Positions 1-38,567 of a DNA stretch of 38,567 bases are shown here, piece by piece; position 1 is the first letter of the stretch, and each line of letters starts with the position of its first letter. Position numbers and translations under genes: made by a program. The notes beneath the pieces are model-generated. The model was given only the letters and a program-made list of their open reading frames with translations. It ran no database searches and had not been told where the DNA came from. The stretch lies in the IMG/VR virus record IMGVR_UViG_2531839486_000019, positions 1 through 38,567 of that record; one strand, given 5' to 3'. The stretch is from a virus. Lineage: Duplodnaviria; Heunggongvirae; Uroviricota; Caudoviricetes.

Positions 1-516
1 ATGAAATTTAAAAAATGTCTTCTGCCTGTGGCAATGTTAGCGTCATTCACTCTGGCAGGATGCCAGTCAAATGCTGACGATCATGCTGCCGATGTTTATC
101 AAACCGATCAACTGAATACCAAACAAGAAACTAAAACCGTTAATATTATTTCCATTCTTCCCGCAAAAGTTGCCGTAGACAACTCCCAAAATAAACGGAA
201 CGCACAAGCCTTCGGCGCGCTTATTGGCGCAGTCGCTGGCGGTGTTATCGGCCACAACGTCGGGTCTGGCAGCAATTCCGGAACGACGGCAGGGGCAGTT
301 GGCGGCGGAGCTGTAGGCGCGGCAGCGGGTTCTATGGTGAATGATAAAACCTTAGTGGAAGGTGTTTCTTTAACCTATAAGGAAGGCACCAAAGTGTATA
401 CCTCTACCCAGGTGGGTAAAGAGTGCCAGTTTACGACAGGTTTAGCCGTTGTTATTACCACGACGTATAACGAAACGCGTATTCAGCCAAATACCAAATG
501 TCCTGAAAAGAGCTAA
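1..516 (+). CDS. Gly/Ala-rich (glycine-zipper) lipoprotein, SlyB/YcfJ-like; probably host or prophage-flank gene
   Basis: ATG at 1; signal peptide with lipobox L-A-G-C; GAVAGGVIGH and GGGAVGAAAG glycine-zipper stretches; RBS not visible at window edge. Confidence 0.6.
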   Translation: MKFKKCLLPVAMLASFTLAGCQSNADDHAADVYQTDQLNTKQETKTVNIISILPAKVAVDNSQNKRNAQAFGALIGAVAGGVIGHNVGSGSNSGTTAGAVGGGAVGAAAGSMVNDKTLVEGVSLTYKEGTKVYTSTQVGKECQFTTGLAVVITTTYNETRIQPNTKCPEKS

Positions 517-531
517 TAATCAGGAGGAGTC

Positions 532-1071
532 ATGAAGAAAGTTTTTCTTTGCGCCATCTTAGCCTCCTTAAGCTATCCGGCTATCGCCTCATCATTGCAG
601 GATCAACTCTCTGCTGTCGCAGAAGCGGAACAGCAAGGTAAAAATGAAGAGCAAAGGCAGCATGACGAATGGGTCGCGGAGCGCAACAGGGAAATCCAGC
701 AAGAGAAGCAACGTCGCGCAAATGCCCAGGCCGCCGCTAACAAAAGAGCGGCAACGGCAGCGGCAAATAAGAAAGCTCGTCAGGATAAACTGGACGCCGA
801 AGCCTCTGCGGACAAAAAACGCGATCAAAGTTATGAAGATGAGCTACGCAGCTTAGAGATTCAGAAACAAAAACTGGCGCTGGCAAAAGAAGAAGCCCGC
901 GTTAAGCGAGAAAACGAATTTATCGATCAGGAACTGAAGCACAAAGCTGCGCAAACCGATGTGGTGCAATCTGAAGCTGACGCCAACAGAAATATGACTG
1001 AAGGCGGTCGCGATCTGATGAAAAGCGTGGGCAAAGCAGAAGAGAACAAATCGGACAGCTGGTTTAATTAA
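532..1071 (+). CDS. secreted Ala/Lys/Glu/Gln-rich coiled-coil protein, function unknown
   Basis: RBS caGGAGGagtc 5 nt before ATG; N-terminal signal peptide; low-complexity charged helical composition. Confidence 0.55.
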   Translation: MKKVFLCAILASLSYPAIASSLQDQLSAVAEAEQQGKNEEQRQHDEWVAERNREIQQEKQRRANAQAAANKRAATAAANKKARQDKLDAEASADKKRDQSYEDELRSLEIQKQKLALAKEEARVKRENEFIDQELKHKAAQTDVVQSEADANRNMTEGGRDLMKSVGKAEENKSDSWFN

Positions 1072-1110
1072 TCGATGTTAGTAACTTCAATCCTATAATT
1101 CTTGAAGATA

Positions 1111-1143
1111 AAAAACCCTCTGTAGTAACAGAGGGTTTTGTTC
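1111..1143. terminator. bidirectional rho-independent terminator after the flank genes
   Basis: A-run, stem aaccctctg (1114-1122) / cagagggtt (1129-1137), loop tagtaa, then T-run. Confidence 0.6.
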
Positions 1144-1265
1144 ATTCATAGTGCAGGGTCAAATCATTCCCACTCAATTATTTACGGCTTACATAACCAA
1201 TTGACTGATAACAACTTTCCGCAACCTTATTTTCACCGTACCGTTTTATATACCGTCACCGGAAA

Positions 1266-32497: not shown

Positions 32498-32728
32498 TCA
32501 TGAGTAGAAGAAGTATGCCAGTTCTGCTTTTGAGCGCAGCCATTGTCTTGTTTTACAGGCTTTAAAAAGCCCATTCATCAATACCTTACCTGGCATTTTG
32601 CGCTTACCTGTTAAGTGAGTCTGGATATAGTGACTCGTCGTTCCGGCTTCCTGTGCGAAGGCTTCACGCTCATCCGGAGTAAGTGCAAGCCAGTGCTTTT
32701 TGAAATCGAAATGTCCGTTATCGCTCAT
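32498..32728 (-). CDS. Cro-like HTH regulator (YdaS/Cro family)
   Basis: 76 aa, ATG 32726-32728; HTH-like segment DEREAFAQEAGTTSHYIQTHLTGKR; divergent from the CI-like gene. Confidence 0.6.
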   Translation of the reverse strand: MSDNGHFDFKKHWLALTPDEREAFAQEAGTTSHYIQTHLTGKRKMPGKVLMNGLFKACKTRQWLRSKAELAYFFYS

Positions 32729-32773
32729 AGCTATTGCCTGATATTTATTTCAGATAATAAATATTCACCCATA

Positions 32774-32827
32774 AGGTAACAAAAATCAAGGATAGTTACC
32801 TATGGGGTGCATTTACCTGTTGGGTAA
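32774..32827. promoter_or_regulatory. right operator-like region between the divergent Cro-like and CI-like genes
   Basis: inverted repeat AGGTAAC-N14-GTTACCT (32774-32801) and dyad TTACC-TGTTG-GGTAA (32813-32827). Confidence 0.45.
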
Positions 32828-32882
32828 TATTGCTTTAAATTGAATCATCTACTGATTCATATATGAGGCGATTTTCCAGAAA

Positions 32883-33467
32883 ATGAAAAGTATCCAGGAC
32901 GTCCGCAGGCAAAATCTCAACGACTTGATCGACCGTGAATTCAATGGTGTTCAGACGCGGATGGCAGAAAAACTTGGAACTCAGGCAAATCTGGTAAACC
33001 GCTGGGCTCTTGGCAAGAAGGTTATCGGCGACCAGGTTGCGCGAAAAATTGAAGCTGCCGCCAATAAACCCCGTAACTGGCTTGATATCGATCGCTCGCT
33101 TTCTCAGGAAGGTTTTCAGCCTGTCGGCCCAAGCGACATTGGTCAGCTGGCGGCTCACAACCTGGAACGCTGGATGAGCGAAAGCCGCGACCTTTCAACA
33201 CAGGGAAAACTTCACCGCGCATCCGGCGTCGCCCAGGTGACAATCAGCCGCCTGTTAAACAATGAGGTCAGCGTTTCCATTTCCACCCTGGAGAATGTTG
33301 CATCTGCATTCGGGCGTCACGGATATGAACTACTGATTCACCCGCACGACCCTGCAACTATCAACTATGACCGCTCGCGCTACGCATTATTACCTGAAAC
33401 CGAGAAAGCAAAGATCGAAAGTTACATTGAATTTGTCATCAACCAGAACGAAAAAAACAAACAATAA
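32883..33467 (+). CDS. CI-like repressor candidate with HTH domain(s) and no recognisable LexA/S24 cleavage domain
   Basis: XRE-type HTH (GVQTRMAEKLGTQANLVNRWALGKK) and a second HTH-like stretch; no Ala-Gly/Ser-Lys peptidase motifs seen; divergent from Cro-like gene. Confidence 0.55.
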   Translation: MKSIQDVRRQNLNDLIDREFNGVQTRMAEKLGTQANLVNRWALGKKVIGDQVARKIEAAANKPRNWLDIDRSLSQEGFQPVGPSDIGQLAAHNLERWMSESRDLSTQGKLHRASGVAQVTISRLLNNEVSVSISTLENVASAFGRHGYELLIHPHDPATINYDRSRYALLPETEKAKIESYIEFVINQNEKNKQ

Positions 33468-33488
33468 AATCATATTTTTCAGTAAGTA

Positions 33489-33512
33489 AGCCGCCAAATG
33501 GCGGCTTTTTTT
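33489..33512 (+). terminator. rho-independent terminator after the CI-like gene
   Basis: stem agccgcc / ggcggct with aaat loop, then TTTTTT. Confidence 0.65.
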
Positions 33513-33525
33513 ATTGTCTTTTTAA

Positions 33526-33602
33526 TTACCTTACAGGTAATTTTTTTAACTCATATCTATTGACATCAAACCAAATACGCATAATTATTACCTCAACGGT
33601 AA
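33526..33602 (+). promoter_or_regulatory. pL-like early-left promoter with two operator-like dyads
   Basis: dyad TTACC-TTACA-GGTAA (33526-33540); -35 TTGACA (33560-33565); 17-bp spacer; -10 AATTAT (33583-33588) overlapped by dyad TTACC-TCAAC-GGTAA (33588-33602). Confidence 0.5.
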
Positions 33603-33621
33603 CAAGCCGAGGTAACAAGTT

Positions 33622-33774
33622 ATGCAGTGGAAAATCATCAACGGTTGGTACTGCGTTACTGCATGCGGATTCATGAGCTGGAAGTTCCGCACCTTACAGG
33701 AAGGCATTAAGTGGGCTTTCGTCAGCAAAGAAGCTCGCGATGTGGCCAACGATAACGAGATATGGGAGGGCTGA
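33622..33774 (+). CDS. hypothetical 50-aa protein, first gene of the early-left operon (not in ORF track)
   Basis: ATG 33622 with GAGGT 8 nt upstream; TGA 33772-33774; reads MQWKIINGWYCVTACGFMSWKFRTLQEGIKWAFVSKEARDVANDNEIWEG. Confidence 0.3.
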   Translation: MQWKIINGWYCVTACGFMSWKFRTLQEGIKWAFVSKEARDVANDNEIWEG

Positions 33775-33776
33775 TA

Positions 33777-34076
33777 ATGAACGTTAATCAGCAGAAAAAT
33801 CTTCAAAAAATCATGCTGGCATTCGACAAGGACTACCGCCTGTCAGAACAGCTATATGACCGACAAGTTGAACTGATTGAGAGCATCCGACTTCATCAAC
33901 TGTCCTCAACTTTCGACGTTGTAACAGGCAAAGGCGTTCGTCAGGAAGTACTGGAGGCTGCTAAAGACAGCCCTGAGTTCGAAGAACTGATGGATGCCTA
34001 TCGGCGAGAGGCAATGGCAATTATCGCCCGCTGGGATCTGGCGGATCAGATTGATGGACAGAGGGACGCGGCATGA
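33777..34076 (+). CDS. hypothetical protein
   Basis: ATG 33777 with RBS GGGAGGG; the earlier track start lacks an RBS. Confidence 0.5.
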   Translation: MNVNQQKNLQKIMLAFDKDYRLSEQLYDRQVELIESIRLHQLSSTFDVVTGKGVRQEVLEAAKDSPEFEELMDAYRREAMAIIARWDLADQIDGQRDAA

Positions 34077-34894
34077 AACCGGGAATTTATTTCGACATCA
34101 GCAACGAAGACTACCACGCCGGTGACGGAGTGAGTAAGTCGCAACTAGACATGGTTGCCAAGAATCCGGCGCTTCTTAAATGGGTTCAGGCAGCACCAGA
34201 AGACGAAGAGAAAAAGTCTGCACTGGATATGGGAACCGCATTGCACTGTCTGCTTCTGGAGCCTGGAGAGTTCGACAAACGCTTCATTGTTTCACCGAAA
34301 TTCGATCGTCGGACGAAACAAGGTAAAGCTGACGAAGAGGCATTTCTTCGTGATGTGGCGGATATGGGGATTACGGTACTTGATGCCGAGCAGTGGCGGA
34401 AACTGGAGCTGATGCGTGATAGCGCAATGGCTCACCCGGCGGCACGCTGGATGCTGGAAGCACCTGGTTACTGCGAAGCATCAATGTACTGGAACGATGA
34501 AGATACTGGTGAGTTGTGCCGAATTCGTCCAGACAAATGGCTGAACGAGCACAACGTGATCGTCGACGTGAAAAAGGTTGCAGATATGGACCGTTTTGCA
34601 CGCCACATCGAGGAATTCCGCTACCACGTGCAGGACGCAATGTACCGCGAAGGCGCAATGAGGGTTACTGGTCAGCCGCATGGTTTTTTCTTTCTTGCCG
34701 TGAGCGAAAGCATTGATTGTGGTCGATATCCGGTACGCGTGTTCGAGCTGGATGCGACGGATGTCGATGCCGGGCACGCTCTGTTCCGCCGGGATCTGAA
34801 TACCTATCACGAATGCCGCATCAACGATGAGTGGGGCGGAGTGGAAATTATTAAACGCCCTGACTGGGCACGTAAACAGGATATGTACGTATGA
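34073..34894 (+). CDS. putative exonuclease (RecE/YqaJ-like PD-(D/E)xK recombination exonuclease)
   Basis: N-terminal IYFDISNEDYHAGDGVSKSQL pattern typical of phage recombination exonucleases; paired with a downstream RecT-like gene. Confidence 0.65.
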   Translation: MKPGIYFDISNEDYHAGDGVSKSQLDMVAKNPALLKWVQAAPEDEEKKSALDMGTALHCLLLEPGEFDKRFIVSPKFDRRTKQGKADEEAFLRDVADMGITVLDAEQWRKLELMRDSAMAHPAARWMLEAPGYCEASMYWNDEDTGELCRIRPDKWLNEHNVIVDVKKVADMDRFARHIEEFRYHVQDAMYREGAMRVTGQPHGFFFLAVSESIDCGRYPVRVFELDATDVDAGHALFRRDLNTYHECRINDEWGGVEIIKRPDWARKQDMYV

Positions 34895-35772
34895 GCAACG
34901 ACATCGCAATCACATCGCAGCCCGGCGCCACTGTAGGAACCGCCGCTGCAATCTTCAGCCCGGAGGGCATGAATCAACTGGTGCGCTTCGCTGATCTGAT
35001 GGCACAGAGCAAAGCCACCGTTCCGGCACACCTGGCTGGCAAGCCGGCAGACTGCCTGGCCGTGACCATGCAGGCGGCACAGTGGGGAATGAACCCTTTC
35101 GCCGTGGCGCAGAAAACGCATGTGGTAAACGGAACGTTAGGCTACGAAGCACAGTTGGTAAACGCGGTCGTATCCTCTTCCAGCCTGCTAGCGACACGCC
35201 TGAATTATCGCTGGAGCGGTGACTGGTCGAATGTTAACGGCAAAACAGATAAATCACCGAATCTGACGGTAACTGTGTCAGCAGTTCTTAAAGGAGAAGC
35301 AGAACCCCGTGAGCTTACCATCAGTATGGCGCAAGCCGGAGTGCGTAACTCTCCATTGTGGGAACAGGATCCGCGCCAGCAGCTTGCCTATCTTTGCACG
35401 AAACGATGGGCTCGCCTGCACGCTCCTGATGTACTTCTCGGTGTTTACACCCCTGACGAATTACAGGAAACGGCACCGCGCGTTGAGCGAGACATTACTC
35501 CGCAAACAACTACGGCTGCGGGAATGAATAGTCTGATCAACGCTAAAACAGTGAAAAAGCCTGATGAGCAAACGCGTAAAGCGGATAGCCGTGATCCAGA
35601 AGAAATGCTGATGGCCTTTACCAGCGCAGCGATGAATTACAGCACTGTCTCCGAACTGGATAAGGCTTACAAATACATTGCACAAAAACTTTCAGATGAT
35701 GACGAACTGCTGGCAAAAGCCACCGACGTTTACAGCGTTCGTCGGGAAGAATTAAACGAAACATCTATGTAA
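34891..35772 (+). CDS. RecT-like single-strand annealing recombinase
   Basis: 293 aa; core region (AQWGMNPFAVAQKTHVVNGTLGYEAQLVNAVV) resembles the RecT/Red-beta family; overlaps exonuclease stop. Confidence 0.65.
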   Translation: MSNDIAITSQPGATVGTAAAIFSPEGMNQLVRFADLMAQSKATVPAHLAGKPADCLAVTMQAAQWGMNPFAVAQKTHVVNGTLGYEAQLVNAVVSSSSLLATRLNYRWSGDWSNVNGKTDKSPNLTVTVSAVLKGEAEPRELTISMAQAGVRNSPLWEQDPRQQLAYLCTKRWARLHAPDVLLGVYTPDELQETAPRVERDITPQTTTAAGMNSLINAKTVKKPDEQTRKADSRDPEEMLMAFTSAAMNYSTVSELDKAYKYIAQKLSDDDELLAKATDVYSVRREELNETSM

Positions 35773-35821
35773 CCACCACCGCGGCGCCACGCGCGCCGCA
35801 CTGCAACCAAGAGAGGTATTT

Positions 35822-36070
35822 ATGAAAGGTGCATTAGGTAAGAAGGAACTCCTGGCGGTGGTGCCACTGTCATGGAGCACTATCGACCGTATGGAGCGCG
35901 CAGGGGAATTTCCTAAACGCTGGTATATCACCGATAAACGCTGCGCATGGAACCGTGACGAAGTTGAGCGTTGGCTTGATGAACGTCAAGCAGCAAGCCC
36001 GGCAGAGTTCCAGGGTAAAAAACCTCCTGTTCAGCAACGTGTATATCGTCCCGTGAGCAACGCTGCATGA
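35822..36070 (+). CDS. AlpA/excisionase-like winged-helix DNA-binding protein
   Basis: LLAVVPLSWSTIDRMERAGEFPKRWYITDKRCAWNRDEVERWLDE matches the AlpA/Xis-type HTH pattern. Confidence 0.6.
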   Translation: MKGALGKKELLAVVPLSWSTIDRMERAGEFPKRWYITDKRCAWNRDEVERWLDERQAASPAEFQGKKPPVQQRVYRPVSNAA

Positions 36071-36179
36071 GTGCGCTGCTAAGGCACTGGAGCAAATGGT
36101 CAGGATGGTACTTATTCCTGGCCTCTGTTTCAGCATGGCTTTATCTGCTGGCATTAATTTTCAGAGAGGGTTGGATTAA

Positions 36180-36479
36180 GTGAGAAAGTTAAGCCGACTT
36201 GAAAAATATCACATGAATAAGGTTTCAATGCGCAGCCCTTCAAAGGTTGTTGCCGTTACTCCTGCGGCGATAGAGATCGAAAAACGCGCGATTGAAAGAG
36301 AGAAAAAAGGGCAGTTCCGCATTGCCGCCCACCTTTGGCTTCAGTGTATGGATGTTGCTTCTGGTGATGTTGAGCGTGCAAGGATCGCGGTTCGCAGGGA
36401 CCAATGTATCACAAAAGGTAACGGCCTTCGCCGTGGCGACTATAGCGGCATAGGATGTTGTGGGGTGGTTTATGAATAA
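36180..36479 (+). CDS. hypothetical protein (small regulator-like)
   Basis: GTG start at 36180 with RBS GAGAGGG; alternative ATG starts at 36213 and 36228. Confidence 0.4.
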   Translation: MRKLSRLEKYHMNKVSMRSPSKVVAVTPAAIEIEKRAIEREKKGQFRIAAHLWLQCMDVASGDVERARIAVRRDQCITKGNGLRRGDYSGIGCCGVVYE

Positions 36480-37122
36480 GAAATACACACTAATCTATGC
36501 AGATCCACCCTGGGTATACCGGGACAAAGCCGCAGATGGTAATCGCGGTGCAGGTTTTAAATATCCGGTTATGAGTGTGCTGGATATCTGCCGCCTTCCT
36601 GTGTGGGACTTGGCCGATAAAAACTGTCTGTTGGCCATGTGGTGGGTGCCAACACAACCACTCGAAGCACTAAAAGTTGTTGAAGCCTGGGGATTCCGTC
36701 TGATGACCATGAAGGGCTTCACGTGGATAAAATGTGGTAGTCGACAACCAGATAAACTGGTTATGGGTATGGGACACATGACTCGCGCCAATAGTGAAGA
36801 TTGCCTGTTTGCGGTAAAGGGAAAACTACCTACGCGCATTAATGCAGGGATCGTTCAGTCATTTACCGCACCGCGGCTTGAGCATTCAAGAAAACCAGAT
36901 GTCGTTCGTGAAAAACTTGTGCAATTGTTAGGCGATGTTTCTCGCATTGAACTGTTCGCCCGCCAGTCGTCTCATGGCTTCGATGTTTGGGGGAATCAGT
37001 GCGAAGACCCGGCAGTGCAACTACACCCTGGATACGCGTTGGATATTGGCGGATTAACAAATGCATTCAGCAATGCTCCGCTGTCACCAACAGACAACCA
37101 GGGGCGGGAGCGTGCAGCATGA
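36472..37122 (+). CDS. MT-A70 family DNA N6-adenine methyltransferase (orphan)
   Basis: catalytic DPPW motif (LIYADPPWVY) near N-terminus; ATG 36472 with RBS GGGGTGG; no adjacent restriction gene. Confidence 0.8.
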   Translation: MNKKYTLIYADPPWVYRDKAADGNRGAGFKYPVMSVLDICRLPVWDLADKNCLLAMWWVPTQPLEALKVVEAWGFRLMTMKGFTWIKCGSRQPDKLVMGMGHMTRANSEDCLFAVKGKLPTRINAGIVQSFTAPRLEHSRKPDVVREKLVQLLGDVSRIELFARQSSHGFDVWGNQCEDPAVQLHPGYALDIGGLTNAFSNAPLSPTDNQGRERAA

Positions 37123-37313
37123 ACAGGGCATCACCAGCAGATTTAAGGAAATGCCTTGAAACTGCAAACATGCTTGCACACAGCGGGATCAGGTTTGTTC
37201 CAATTCCCGCTGTCACTGATGCTGAATTTGCAACACTGTCAGCAATATTCGCAGATAAAATTGAATCACTGGCAGCAGAAGCCGAGATGGAAGAAAATCA
37301 GCAGAATAATTAA
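37119..37313 (+). CDS. hypothetical 64-aa protein adjacent to the integrase
   Basis: ATG 37119-37121 overlaps methylase stop (ATGA); the longer track ORF 36987 overlaps the methylase. Confidence 0.45.
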   Translation: MNRASPADLRKCLETANMLAHSGIRFVPIPAVTDAEFATLSAIFADKIESLAAEAEMEENQQNN

Positions 37314-37316
37314 ACG

Positions 37317-38567
37317 TTATTCCCCCGCCATCCATTTCTCAAACTTCGACGGGGAGAACGGAATCAGATCCGTATGCTCCCCGTCAATCCAGGAATCAAT
37401 CATATCGGCCCACTGCTGCAACATCCAGGCGCGCTGTCTGGCGTATTCCGCTTTGTTATATACGGCGCGCACACCTTTCTGCTCATGTGCCAGAGCCTTT
37501 TCAATCCAGTCTGAAGGATAACCAGCCTCATGCAATAACGTACTGGCTGTACGGCGCATATCGTGTACGGTGAAGTCCTGAATATGCTCACCATTTTCAT
37601 TTATTATTTTCACCGTTCTGTCGATCAGAGAGTTCAGCGCGGCATTAGATAATGGCTTCCGGAAGTTGTAACGACCAGGAACCAGATATTCACTTCCACC
37701 AGCGCACATCTGCAGCCCGACCAATATATCCTGTGCCTGTTTAGGCAGGTAAATAACGTGCGCCCGGCTTCCCTTCATGCGGTCTGAAGGAATTGTCCAT
37801 GTCCATTTTTTAAAATCTATTTCATCCCACGTTGCGTTGGTGAATTCGCCTTTACGAACCATAGTGATAAGCACCAGCTTTAAAGCCATTTTCATAGTGC
37901 CCATAGCACCAATGGCATCCAGCGTGCGGAAGAACAGGCCAATTTCTTCTGGTGTCAGTGTTCGCTCTCTTGGTTTAAATATGGCGATAGACGAAGGTTT
38001 AATGTCAGCCGCAGGATTAAACAAACCATGACCACGGTCATTGGCGTGACGGTATACGCTGCTGATGATCTCCCTTGCCTGTACTGCTGTTGCCCGACCA
38101 CCGCGTTCGACAATCCGGTCACACAAATCACGAACCATCGATGTGGTAATTTCAGTCATCATTTTGTTGCCAAGAACCGGAAGTATGTCACGGTCGATCA
38201 CCGCCTGCTTCATTGCGCGGGTACTGTCAGCCAGGATGACGTGTTTCATATAACTGTCGGTATGTACCGTAAACGTCTCGGCACCACGAATCTTTTTGAT
38301 ACCGTCACGTTTAGCCGCAGCCGGTGACTGGCCTGCTTTAAGCAGCTTCTTTGCAGCAATCAGTTCTTCTCGCGCTTCTGCCAGGCTGATACCGTCACGC
38401 CCATACTGCCCGATTACCAGTGTTTCGCGGCGACCGTTGATACGGTAGTCATAGCGAAACGAGACCGTACCTGACGTAAGCACAGCTACATACAGCCCGT
38501 CACGATCGGAAACTTTGTACAGTTTGTCCTGTGGCTTGAGGTTCTTTAATTTTGTATCGGTAAGCAC
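37317..38567 (-). CDS. int: tyrosine site-specific integrase (P4-like); 5' end at or just beyond the window edge
   Basis: 416 aa; N-terminus LTDTKLKNLKPQDKLYKVSDRDGLYV typical of integrase arm-binding domain; C-terminal catalytic region with HDMRRT and conserved Tyr; first codon GTG at window edge. Confidence 0.85.
   Translation of the reverse strand: MLTDTKLKNLKPQDKLYKVSDRDGLYVAVLTSGTVSFRYDYRINGRRETLVIGQYGRDGISLAEAREELIAAKKLLKAGQSPAAAKRDGIKKIRGAETFTVHTDSYMKHVILADSTRAMKQAVIDRDILPVLGNKMMTEITTSMVRDLCDRIVERGGRATAVQAREIISSVYRHANDRGHGLFNPAADIKPSSIAIFKPRERTLTPEEIGLFFRTLDAIGAMGTMKMALKLVLITMVRKGEFTNATWDEIDFKKWTWTIPSDRMKGSRAHVIYLPKQAQDILVGLQMCAGGSEYLVPGRYNFRKPLSNAALNSLIDRTVKIINENGEHIQDFTVHDMRRTASTLLHEAGYPSDWIEKALAHEQKGVRAVYNKAEYARQRAWMLQQWADMIDSWIDGEHTDLIPFSPSKFEKWMAGE

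What the first reader, a model, noticed from the sequence alone, without database searches (positions are those of the whole stretch)
36180..37313. Orphan MT-A70 adenine methyltransferase with two small unknown partner genes next to the integrase
The methylase has the DPPW motif and no cognate restriction gene nearby, which fits an anti-restriction or regulatory role. Its start overlaps the preceding 99-aa gene and its stop overlaps the following 64-aa gene, so the three are translationally coupled and probably function together.
Basis: partly seen in the sequence, partly recalled or inferred. Interest (0 to 1): 0.4.

Follow-up and report, generated by a model that had tools for sequence, protein, structure and literature searches.

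The report
Orphan phage MT-A70 adenine methyltransferase cassette
This is the already annotated adenine methyltransferase gene of a phiV10/epsilon15-type E. coli prophage, sitting between a PerC-family gene and a lambda-Orf63-family gene; the three genes are real and overlap, but relatives show they are interchangeable neighbours in a variable slot, not a fixed three-part machine.

Summary
Three overlapping + strand genes lie next to a convergent integrase: a 99-aa ORF (36180-36479), an MT-A70 methyltransferase with DPPW (best start ATG 36472, 216 aa, to 37122) and a 64-aa ORF (37119-37313).

The small genes are not unknown. One is PerC family (PF06069). The other is DUF1382, the family of lambda Orf63 (PDB 8DSB).

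The window is 98.6% identical to phage phiV10, where all three are annotated. The trio is in about 10% of complete E. coli genomes.

Start/stop overlaps run through the whole early-left operon, so they do not define a three-gene unit. In other Uetakeviruses the PerC-to-integrase slot always holds an adenine methyltransferase, with varying flanking genes. In some prophages a non-homologous Dam-type enzyme replaces MT-A70.

My best reading is a stand-alone orphan DNA m6A methyltransferase, probably acting at GATC, made on induction or infection. It is 82% identical to the Stx-phage enzyme M.EcoGV/M.EcoPA8orf6770P. That enzyme is reported both as a GATC methylase and, with its partner PNB-2, as a 16S rRNA methylase. 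PNB-2 is absent here.

A role for PerC or DUF1382 as an accessory subunit is not excluded. This is an ordinary, known feature with an unsettled substrate.

The parts
33560..33588 (+). Promoter-like site (TTGACA-17-AATTAT), candidate early-left promoter for the operon that contains the three genes. It follows the terminator-like hairpin at 33488-33507 after the repressor-like gene.
   Evidence: It is the only + strand promoter-like match in 32700-38567. This is a consensus match only, so the promoter role is inferred.
35822..36070 (+). AlpA-family excisionase/regulator gene (82 aa)
   Evidence: Pfam PF05930 E 3e-5. Annotated in phiV10 and epsilon15.
36067..36183 (+). 38-aa predicted membrane protein gene (phiV10p35 homologue). 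It has an ATGA overlap with AlpA and a GTGA overlap with the PerC gene.
   Evidence: phrog_17484 E 2.6e-27. 100% identical to phiV10p35.
36180..36479 (+). PerC-family small protein gene (99 aa from GTG 36180; RefSeq phiV10 uses ATG 36213)
   Evidence: PF06069 30.1 bits against a cut-off of 22.6. phrog_868 matched 1-99 of 99. dN/dS 0.08-0.13.
36472..37122 (+). MT-A70 family N6-adenine methyltransferase gene (216 aa). DPPW is encoded at 36502-36513. The C-terminal tail from about residue 188 is variable and low-confidence.
   Evidence: PF05063 E 2.8e-22. PDB relatives are MTA1 and METTL3. AF2 pLDDT 78, Foldseek METTL3 TM 0.69. 82% identical over residues 1-187 to the Stx-phage enzyme. dN/dS 0.05-0.09.
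37119..37313 (+). DUF1382 / lambda Orf63-family gene (64 aa), with an ATGA overlap with the methyltransferase stop
   Evidence: PF07131 E 1.3e-30. PDB 8DSB E 5.8e-13. 51% identical to the gene after the Stx-phage methyltransferase.
37317..38567 (-). P4-type tyrosine integrase gene (416 aa), convergent with the operon. Its start codon is the last triplet of the window.
   Evidence: Pfam Arm-DNA-bind_3, Phage_int_M and Phage_integrase. phiV10p31.

Best explanation
The window is a phiV10/epsilon15-type (Uetakevirus) prophage. The three genes are the last genes of its early-left operon, which reads from about 33.6 kb towards the integrase.

The middle gene encodes a minimal, catalytically intact MT-A70 (class beta) SAM-dependent N6-adenine methyltransferase.

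Most likely it works on its own as an orphan DNA methyltransferase. It would be made on induction or infection and would methylate replicating phage DNA, and incidentally host DNA. The probable target is GATC or a GATC-containing site. This would protect the DNA from methylation-sensitive restriction, or tune lysis/lysogeny-related DNA transactions.

The PerC-family gene upstream is a backbone regulator of the genus. The DUF1382/Orf63-family gene downstream is a separate small early protein of the kind found in lambdoid exo-xis regions. Both are neighbours through cassette shuffling in a variable slot, not dedicated subunits.

- Shown: gene identities, motifs, fold, operon layout, slot variability.
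- Inferred: DNA as substrate, GATC specificity, time of expression, independence from the neighbours.
For: **The enzyme looks intact**
- Family, motifs and fold.
- DPPW and the C-terminal RIELFAR...GxxxWGN region are conserved in nearly every homologue aligned (DPPW is DPAW in one of nine sequences of A1), over 9 and 36 sequences.
- dN/dS is 0.05-0.09.

**The slot always holds an adenine methyltransferase**
- Every Uetakevirus checked has an adenine methyltransferase between PerC and int.
- In prophages with the same backbone, MT-A70 is replaced by a non-homologous PF05869 Dam-type enzyme (E 3e-58) or by a 664-aa C5+Dam fusion.
- The same 66-aa downstream gene (95-97% identical) follows either enzyme type.
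- I read this as non-orthologous displacement, which points to DNA adenine methylation as the slot's function.

**Relatives sit beside DNA-modification genes**
- C5 DNA methylases lie directly downstream in L088, L110 and L116.
- DndB lies directly upstream in SPN1S.

**Published data**
- Prokaryotic MT-A70 relatives include M.BglII-type R-M enzymes (PMC4738411).
- M.EcoGV, which Gong et al. call 'highly similar' to the enzyme that is 82% identical here, is listed with GATC specificity. It methylated GATC in vivo when over-produced (PMC6602927; PMC10810198).

**The neighbours vary**.

**Operon layout**.
Against: - Gong et al. (PMC10810198) found almost no DNA activity in vitro for the purified Stx-phage orthologue alone. 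With PNB-2 it preferred RNA over DNA more than 13-fold, with 16S rRNA the favoured species.
- The protein has no obvious target-recognition domain. Its structural relatives, METTL3-METTL14 and MTA1c, need partner subunits.
- GATC is not depleted or enriched in the window in an informative way: 157 sites, observed/expected 0.76.
- No experiment exists for the phiV10-type enzyme itself (one search found none).
- Recurrent adjacency of PerC-domain and DUF1382 genes to MT-A70 genes in other phages leaves room for a functional link.
Confidence: 0.55

Rival explanations
1. It is mainly an RNA methyltransferase, as reported for the Stx-phage orthologue. After induction it would methylate 16S rRNA, alter translation, and raise the frequency or yield of lytic development.
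For: - It is 82% identical over the catalytic core to the phiON-2011/phiPA8 enzyme.
- The identity of that module with the one in the paper is confirmed by an exact 31-nt match to the published terminator.
- Gong et al. report 16S rRNA preference, an active-site-dependent rise in spontaneous induction, and METTL3 as the nearest structure. The nearest solved folds here are also METTL3.
Against: - RNA preference in that study depended on PNB-2. No PNB-2 homologue exists anywhere in the window (tblastn).
- PerC is unrelated to PNB-2 (BLASTP no hit; hhalign probability 1.3%).
- The C-terminal tail that Gong et al. suggest may matter for PNB-2 binding is replaced here.
- The published assay measured SAM consumption. 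The modified base was not mapped.
- Replacement of MT-A70 by Dam-type and C5+Dam DNA methylases in the same slot is hard to reconcile with an rRNA role.
Confidence: 0.2
2. One reading: the PerC-family protein, the DUF1382 dimer, or both are accessory subunits. They would take the place of PNB-2 and give the core-only methyltransferase its substrate choice or regulation.
For: **PerC**
- wHTH+PerC fusion proteins occupy the PNB-2 position directly upstream of HK639-type MT-A70 genes. This occurs in two unrelated prophage lineages: L147 (PF06069 27.3 bits) and L164 (20.2 bits).
- 77 of 80 IMG/VR relatives of L164 keep MT-A70 within 0.8 kb.
- Natural in-frame PerC-methyltransferase fusions exist (P0029, P0027).

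**DUF1382**
- DUF1382 abuts MT-A70 in three layouts, and on either side of it: phiV10 type, Stx phages, and E. kobei/K. oxytoca prophages.
- Orf63 is a dimer with a cleft that binds an amphipathic helix, and it has no known partner (PMC10869804).

**The enzyme**
- MT-A70 enzymes usually work with partners.
Against: - PerC is present in all Uetakeviruses and is usually separated from the methyltransferase by DUF1317 or other genes.
- Dam-type replacements keep PerC.
- DUF1382 is missing beside most relatives. It is 0.4-1.8 kb away in about one third of HK639-type loci.
- DUF1382 occurs without any methyltransferase next to it in lambda (my own knowledge of the lambda map) and in L093 and L095.
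- Tyrion keeps the same methyltransferase tail but has wHTH genes on both sides instead.
- The fusions are rare variants: 3 and 2 sequences.
Confidence: 0.15
3. The gene is a decaying or inactive passenger with no function for the phage.
For: - Homologues were not detectably active in native lysogens in published methylomes (PMC6602927).
- IS629-disrupted copies circulate in Stx phages.
Against: - All catalytic motifs are intact and dN/dS is 0.05-0.09.
- A methyltransferase is retained in the slot in every Uetakevirus examined.
- The trio is at 95% or higher nucleotide identity in 514-539 of 5426 complete E. coli genomes.
Confidence: 0.05

Closest known systems
phiV10 genes PhiV10p34-p33-p32 (NC_007804.2) and the same trio in RefSeq E. 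coli genomes
   Same: 98.6% nucleotide identity over 35800-37400, with the same order and overlaps. They are annotated as transcriptional activator (PerC) / DNA methyltransferase / DUF1382. PGAP gives the same names in more than 500 E. coli genomes.
   Different: Essentially nothing. RefSeq starts the PerC gene at the internal ATG (88 aa). No experimental work on this enzyme was found.
M.EcoPA8orf6770P / M.EcoGV of Stx2a phages (phiPA8, phiON-2011), with partner PNB-2
   Same: MT-A70 core 82% identical over residues 1-187. It sits near int in the early-left region and is followed by a DUF1382-family gene.
   Different: PNB-2 (143 aa, wHTH) is encoded upstream there and is absent here. The C-terminal tails are unrelated from about residue 188. 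The phage lineage is different (Sepvirinae, not Uetakevirus). Reported activities conflict: GATC DNA or 16S rRNA.
Phage-encoded orphan Dam-type methylases (PF05869 family; for example the Dam-type genes in L339, L341 and L346)
   Same: Same genomic slot between PerC and int in related prophages, same small size, same junction style. I infer that they do the same job.
   Different: Unrelated methyltransferase family, so this is an analogue and not a homologue.
Eukaryotic MT-A70 enzymes: METTL3-METTL14 and ciliate MTA1c
   Same: Same fold and the DPPW catalytic motif. Foldseek TM 0.6-0.7 at 17-26% identity; phmmer E 4e-13 to MTA1.
   Different: Those are obligate heteromers with an inactive paralogue and extra nucleic-acid-binding subunits. 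No paralogue is encoded in the window. The phage protein is only the about 180-residue core plus a short tail.
Lambda Orf63 (DUF1382, PDB 8DSB) of the exo-xis region
   Same: The 64-aa gene is a clear family member (E 5.8e-13 over residues 2-62). It is likewise a small early-left gene between the recombination genes and int.
   Different: In lambda it is not next to a methyltransferase (my knowledge of the lambda map). The pro-lytic effect shown for lambda and Phi24B Orf63 has not been tested for this copy.
PerC of EPEC / Pch proteins of EHEC prophages
   Same: Shares the PF06069 domain at residues 35-80.
   Different: Distant member: 30 bits, matching only the first 50 of 90 profile positions. 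Activation of the LEE regulator ler by PerC/Pch is from my own knowledge and was not tested here.

Membership tests
MT-A70 (PF05063) class-beta N6-adenine methyltransferases | Significant match to the family profile over its whole length | tested here: met
   PF05063 79.9 bits against a cut-off of 23.9; profile 1-172 of 172 matched by residues 9-180 of the 220-aa form.
MT-A70 (PF05063) class-beta N6-adenine methyltransferases | Catalytic motif IV, DPPW, near the N-terminus and ahead of the SAM-binding region (the permuted beta order) | tested here: met
   DPPW is at residues 11-14 (36502-36513). The conserved RIELFAR...G(F/W)DxWGN block is at 158-176. D11, P12 and W14 are invariant across 9 sequences (P13 is A in one) and R158-I159-E160-L161-F162 and R164 are invariant (A163 is S in two), and nearly all of these positions are at least 90% conserved across 36 sequences.
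MT-A70 (PF05063) class-beta N6-adenine methyltransferases | MT-A70 / METTL3-like Rossmann fold | tested here: met
   AF2 model pLDDT 78, pTM 0.78. Top Foldseek PDB hits are METTL3 (E 2e-13, TM 0.69) and Tetrahymena MTA1.
MT-A70 (PF05063) class-beta N6-adenine methyltransferases | SAM-dependent N6-adenine methylation activity, and identity of the substrate (DNA or RNA) | not testable with these tools
   Only literature on the 82% orthologue exists, and it conflicts.
M.EcoPA8orf6770P-PNB-2 rRNA methyltransferase holoenzyme (Gong et al. 2023) | Catalytic subunit orthologous to M.EcoPA8orf6770P | tested here: met
   82% identity over residues 1-187, E 2e-122. The reference locus was verified by an exact match to the published terminator.
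M.EcoPA8orf6770P-PNB-2 rRNA methyltransferase holoenzyme (Gong et al. 2023) | PNB-2 specificity subunit encoded next to the methyltransferase | tested here: not met
   No PNB-2 homologue in the window (tblastn at E up to 10). The upstream PerC protein is unrelated to PNB-2.
M.EcoPA8orf6770P-PNB-2 rRNA methyltransferase holoenzyme (Gong et al. 2023) | C-terminal about 27 residues of the Stx-phage enzyme, which the authors suggest may be needed for PNB-2 binding | tested here: not met
   Sequences diverge completely after about residue 187.
Type II restriction-modification system | Cognate restriction endonuclease gene adjacent to the methyltransferase | tested here: not met
   The neighbours are PerC, DUF1382 and the integrase. 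There is no nuclease of R-M type in phiV10's annotation or in the window-specific ORFs. Some relatives do carry a PDDEXK_5-like gene upstream.
PerC family (PF06069) | Match to the family profile above the gathering score | tested here: met
   30.1 bits against 22.6, but only profile positions 5-50 of 90. phrog_868 'transcriptional activator' E 1.9e-61.
PerC family (PF06069) | Transcription-activating function | not testable with these tools
   No data for the Uetakevirus proteins. The weak resemblance to ANR regulators is below the cut-off: 23.6 bits against 32.
DUF1382 / lambda Orf63 family (PF07131) | Full-length match to the family profile and to the solved Orf63 structure's sequence | tested here: met
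   PF07131 105.7 bits, profile 1-60 of 60. 8DSB E 5.8e-13.

The most novel reading that the evidence does not exclude
Phage MT-A70 enzymes may be core-only catalytic subunits that borrow interchangeable small partners: PNB-2, wHTH proteins, PerC-domain proteins, and DUF1382/Orf63 dimers. In this prophage the PerC-family protein, the Orf63-family protein, or both would be that partner and would decide whether DNA or RNA is methylated.

If so, two long-unexplained families would be tied to m6A writing: the PerC/Pch virulence-regulator relatives and the lambda exo-xis protein Orf63.
Probability: 0.12. Interest if true: 0.6.

Novelty: already known. Interest (0 to 1): 0.27.

Why it matters
The cassette sits in roughly one in ten complete E. 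coli genomes and in every epsilon15/phiV10-type phage examined. Its closest studied relative has two conflicting published activities.

Knowing whether these core-only MT-A70 enzymes methylate phage DNA at GATC or ribosomal RNA would settle three questions: how they affect restriction escape, how they affect prophage induction, and how methylome data should be read. A Dam-like phage enzyme is invisible in dam+ hosts.

The slot comparison made here is a cheap argument for a DNA role, and experiments can test it directly. In that slot MT-A70, Dam-type and C5+Dam genes swap in the same context.

For the scan itself, the result is that this finding is a known, annotated feature, and that gene overlap alone is not evidence for a complex.

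Tried and rejected
1. **PNB-2 as the upstream gene.** Rejected. BLASTP found no alignment, hhalign gave probability 1.3%, and there is no PNB-2 anywhere in the window.
2. **DUF1382 as an obligate partner.** Weakened.
   - HK639-type loci have it 0.4-1.8 kb away, never adjacent.
   - It is absent beside Tyrion, epsilon15, Pocitis76 and SPN1S-type enzymes.
   - It is present without MT-A70 in L093 and L095.
3. **PerC as an obligate partner.** Weakened by DUF1317 or other genes lying in between in most Uetakeviruses, and by Dam-type replacements.
4. **GATC counts in the window as a clue to specificity.** Uninformative: observed/expected 0.76.
5. **First IMG/VR scan with the methyltransferase.** It returned only near-identical phiV10-like loci and added no diversity.
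6. **Reading Fang et al. 2012 (PMC3879109) for M.EcoGV data.** The paper is not held, so the GATC claim is cited second-hand from PMC10810198 and PMC6602927.
7. **Literature on the phiV10 or epsilon15 methylase itself.** Nothing relevant was found.
8. **NCBIfam.** It has no model for the methyltransferase or for DUF1382.
9. **Multimer structure prediction of methyltransferase plus neighbours.** Not possible with the tools given.
Full report
**What is there.** The + strand of 36180-37313 carries three overlapping ORFs.
- A 99-aa ORF from GTG 36180 to 36479.
- A methyltransferase ORF ending at 37122.
- A 64-aa ORF at 37119-37313.

A 416-aa tyrosine integrase gene (38567-37317) converges on them from the - strand. 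Pfam places the three proteins in PerC (PF06069, 30.1 bits, cut-off 22.6), MT-A70 (PF05063, E 2.8e-22, full-length) and DUF1382 (PF07131, E 1.3e-30, full-length). DPPW is encoded at 36502-36513. Against relatives, dN/dS is 0.05-0.16 for all three, so they are real genes under selection.

**Corrections to the coordinates.**
- Homologues all start M-x-x-KY-x-LIYADPPW, and RefSeq annotates that start in phiV10. The methyltransferase therefore most likely begins at ATG 36472 (216 aa). It overlaps the upstream gene by 8 nt (ATGAATAA).
- The 99-aa form of the PerC gene is supported by a 99-position PHROG profile matched end to end.

**Where the window comes from.** 35800-37400 is 98.6% identical to Escherichia phage phiV10. 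It is about 77% identical to Salmonella phage epsilon15 over the 75% of it that aligns. Most of the rest of the window also aligns to phiV10. In phiV10 the three genes are annotated as transcriptional activator (PerC), DNA methyltransferase and DUF1382 protein. The trio occurs at 95% or higher nucleotide identity in 514-539 of 5426 complete E. coli genomes, under the same PGAP names. The feature is therefore known and annotated.

**The small genes are not unknown.** The 64-aa protein matches the sequence of PDB 8DSB, lambda Orf63, at E 5.8e-13. Orf63 is a dimeric early protein of the exo-xis region with pro-lytic effects. It has a hydrophobic cleft that binds an amphipathic helix, and it has no known partner (PMC10869804). 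The 99-aa protein is a distant PerC-family member.

**Operon context.**
- Six of the seven junctions in the operon use the ATGA/GTGA-type overlap: orf104/RecE-like, RecE-like/RecT, AlpA/p35, p35/PerC, PerC/methyltransferase and methyltransferase/DUF1382. The seventh, RecT/AlpA, has a 49-nt gap.
- The only + strand promoter-like site in 32700-38567 lies at 33560-33588, just after a strong terminator-like hairpin behind the repressor-like gene.
- No + strand terminator-like site precedes the integrase gene.
- The three genes are therefore the tail of one long early-left operon. This is inferred from consensus scans.
- The overlaps are a property of that operon, not of a three-gene unit.

**No restriction partner.** Neither phiV10's full annotation nor the window-specific ORFs contain a restriction endonuclease. 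'Orphan' is correct for this window.

**The closest studied enzyme.** tblastn shows 82% identity over residues 1-187 to the methyltransferase of Stx2a phages. Gong, Chakraborty and Koudelka (PMC10810198) studied that enzyme as M.EcoPA8orf6770P.
- Alone, it had near-background activity on DNA and RNA in vitro.
- With PNB-2, encoded immediately upstream, it formed a 1:1 complex that preferred 16S rRNA.
- An intact DPPW raised spontaneous prophage induction.
- The authors stress that the modified base was not mapped.
- The near-identical M.EcoGV methylated GATC in vivo when over-produced. PMC6602927 also lists M.EcoGV as a GATC 'Dam homolog'.

I confirmed that phiON-2011 ORF08, ORF07 and ORF06 are that module. 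The terminator quoted in the paper matches L002 2531-2561 exactly.

**Differences from that system.**
- PNB-2 is absent. There is no alignment to the PerC protein, hhalign probability is 1.3%, and there is no tblastn hit anywhere in the window.
- The C-terminal tails diverge completely after residue about 187.
- PNB-2 does accompany much more distant MT-A70 genes (about 43% identical) in HK639 and in a Klebsiella phage, and in most of 80 HK639-like IMG/VR loci. That pairing is old, and the window's lineage lacks it.

**Are the neighbours partners?** I surveyed relatives from phage records, IMG/VR, one genome per species, and exact-protein contexts.

*PerC.*
- It is a backbone gene of Uetakeviruses.
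- The common order is PerC-DUF1317-methyltransferase, seen in PAT1, BUCT554, BUCT711 and ST512phi13.3. Other genes can lie in between: a wHTH gene in Tyrion, DndB in SPN1S, and a 203-aa gene, a PDDEXK_5-like gene, DUF4406, NinX or DUF1382 in prophages.
- phiV10-type phages lack DUF1317, which brings PerC next to the methyltransferase. Epsilon15 keeps a 35-aa remnant.

*The downstream gene.* It also varies.
- DUF1382 here and in Stx phages (51% identical).
- A wHTH paralogue in Tyrion.
- Unrelated 59-66-aa proteins elsewhere.
- Nothing before int in BUCT554.

*DUF1382.*
- It is upstream of the methyltransferase in E. kobei and K. oxytoca prophages.
- It is 0.4-1.8 kb downstream, never adjacent, in about one third of HK639-like loci.
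- It occurs without MT-A70 in L093 and L095.

This pattern fits cassette shuffling in a small accessory region better than a fixed complex.

**Evidence left in favour of a link.**
- Two unrelated prophage lineages carry wHTH+PerC fusion proteins exactly where PNB-2 sits, directly upstream of HK639-type MT-A70 genes. L147 scores PF06069 27.3 bits. L164 scores 20.2 bits, just below the cut-off.
- 77 of 80 IMG/VR relatives of the L164 type keep MT-A70 within 0.8 kb. These are close relatives, so this is not independent evidence.
- Rare natural in-frame PerC-methyltransferase fusions exist.
- DUF1382 stays adjacent while changing sides.
- I therefore keep the partner model as a minority rival at 0.15.

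**What the slot says about function.**
- Every Uetakevirus-type element examined has an adenine methyltransferase between PerC and int.
- In some prophages it is a PF05869 Dam-type enzyme (E 3e-58) or a 664-aa C5+Dam fusion instead of MT-A70.
- In Kosakonia-type prophages the same 66-aa downstream gene (95-97% identical) follows MT-A70 in two loci and the Dam-type gene in a third.
- Relatives of the MT-A70 gene are followed by C5 DNA methylases (L088, L110, L116) or preceded by DndB (SPN1S).
- Firmicutes homologues sit in conjugative-element contexts.
- Prokaryotic MT-A70 relatives include M.BglII-type R-M enzymes (PMC4738411).
- Replacement of one DNA-methylase family by another in a fixed context is the strongest computational argument I found that the job of this slot is DNA adenine methylation.

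**The protein itself.**
- The AF2 model (pLDDT 78, pTM 0.78) is a compact MT-A70 core. Confidence is low at residues 19-29, 100-104 and 202-216.
- The best PDB matches are METTL3 (TM 0.69) and Tetrahymena MTA1.
- There is no separate target-recognition domain. This is the main structural reason to keep a partner, or a homodimer, in mind.

**Verdict.** The element is an already annotated and very common cassette.
- 0.55: a stand-alone orphan DNA m6A methyltransferase, probably Dam-like, made from the early-left operon on induction or infection, with PerC and DUF1382 as independent neighbours.
- 0.20: an rRNA methyltransferase.
- 0.15: a PerC- or DUF1382-assisted enzyme.
- 0.05: an inactive passenger.

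The operon is probably repressed in lysogens, and GATC methylation is masked by host Dam.

Noticed in passing
L339 3604-4155, L341 2945-3496, L346 4319-4873, L340 2945-4939, compared with window 36472-37122: In prophages with the same RecE-RecT-AlpA-PerC...int backbone, the MT-A70 gene is replaced by a PF05869 Dam-type gene or by a 664-aa C5+Dam fusion. The same 66-aa downstream gene follows MT-A70 in L347 and L348 and the Dam-type gene in L346.
   Followed up: partly
L147 2073-2501; L164 2004-2498; IMG/VR loci L256-L338: Proteins with an N-terminal winged-helix domain fused to a PerC-like domain are encoded directly upstream of HK639-type MT-A70 genes. This is the position PNB-2 occupies in HK639 and in Stx phages.
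   Followed up: partly
L344 2945-3451; L110 1992-2519: A PDDEXK_5-like gene of 168-175 aa (about 80% identical between the two; Pfam 24.4-24.5 bits, below the 26.1 cut-off) lies directly upstream of MT-A70 genes of two different subfamilies. This could be an R-M-like pairing in some relatives.
   Followed up: no
window 37100-37122, and the ends of unrelated cassette genes in L339, L343, L096, L087, L088, L349: Unrelated genes of the PerC-to-int slot (MT-A70, Dam-type, 203-aa, 220-aa) end in ...(R/E/K)AA-stop, with the next gene's ATG overlapping (GCAGCATGA). This shared junction may act as a boundary for cassette exchange.
   Followed up: no
window 37311-37319: The DUF1382 stop (37311-37313) and the integrase stop (37317-37319, - strand) are 3 nt apart, with no terminator-like site between them. 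Early-left transcripts would read antisense into int. Epsilon15's record annotates an RNase III site at the equivalent place.
   Followed up: no
window 34073-34894 and 34891-35772: RecE-like (DUF3799) and RecT are two ORFs with an ATGA overlap here. RefSeq phiV10 annotates one 1761-nt fused CDS (PhiV10p37). Window 35169-35346, inside RecT, does not align to phiV10.
   Followed up: no
window 1-1161: This stretch is absent from phiV10 and carries two ORFs: 1-516 (glycine-zipper/TraT-like) and 532-1071 (DUF5384). They may be prophage-end cargo or host flank. The window ends exactly at the integrase start codon.
   Followed up: no
proteins P0029 (297 aa), P0027 (263 aa), P0049 (270 aa): Rare natural in-frame fusions exist: PerC with the methyltransferase (small deletions at or before the 8-nt overlap), and the methyltransferase with its downstream gene in a Salmonella phage record.
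   Followed up: partly
L118 1615-2484 and about 20 similar Firmicutes loci among L109-L175: MT-A70 homologues 45-51% identical to the window's enzyme occur in Clostridia next to a 287-290-aa ORF. The one such ORF scanned (L118) matches TrbL/VirB6 (PF19478), which points to conjugative elements. The family therefore spreads far beyond enterobacterial phages.
   Followed up: no
L084 2284-2511 and 3145-3351 (phage Tyrion): Tyrion's methyltransferase has the same C-terminal tail as the window's enzyme. It is flanked on both sides by small winged-helix genes that look like paralogues (gp30 and gp28), instead of PerC and DUF1382.
   Followed up: partly
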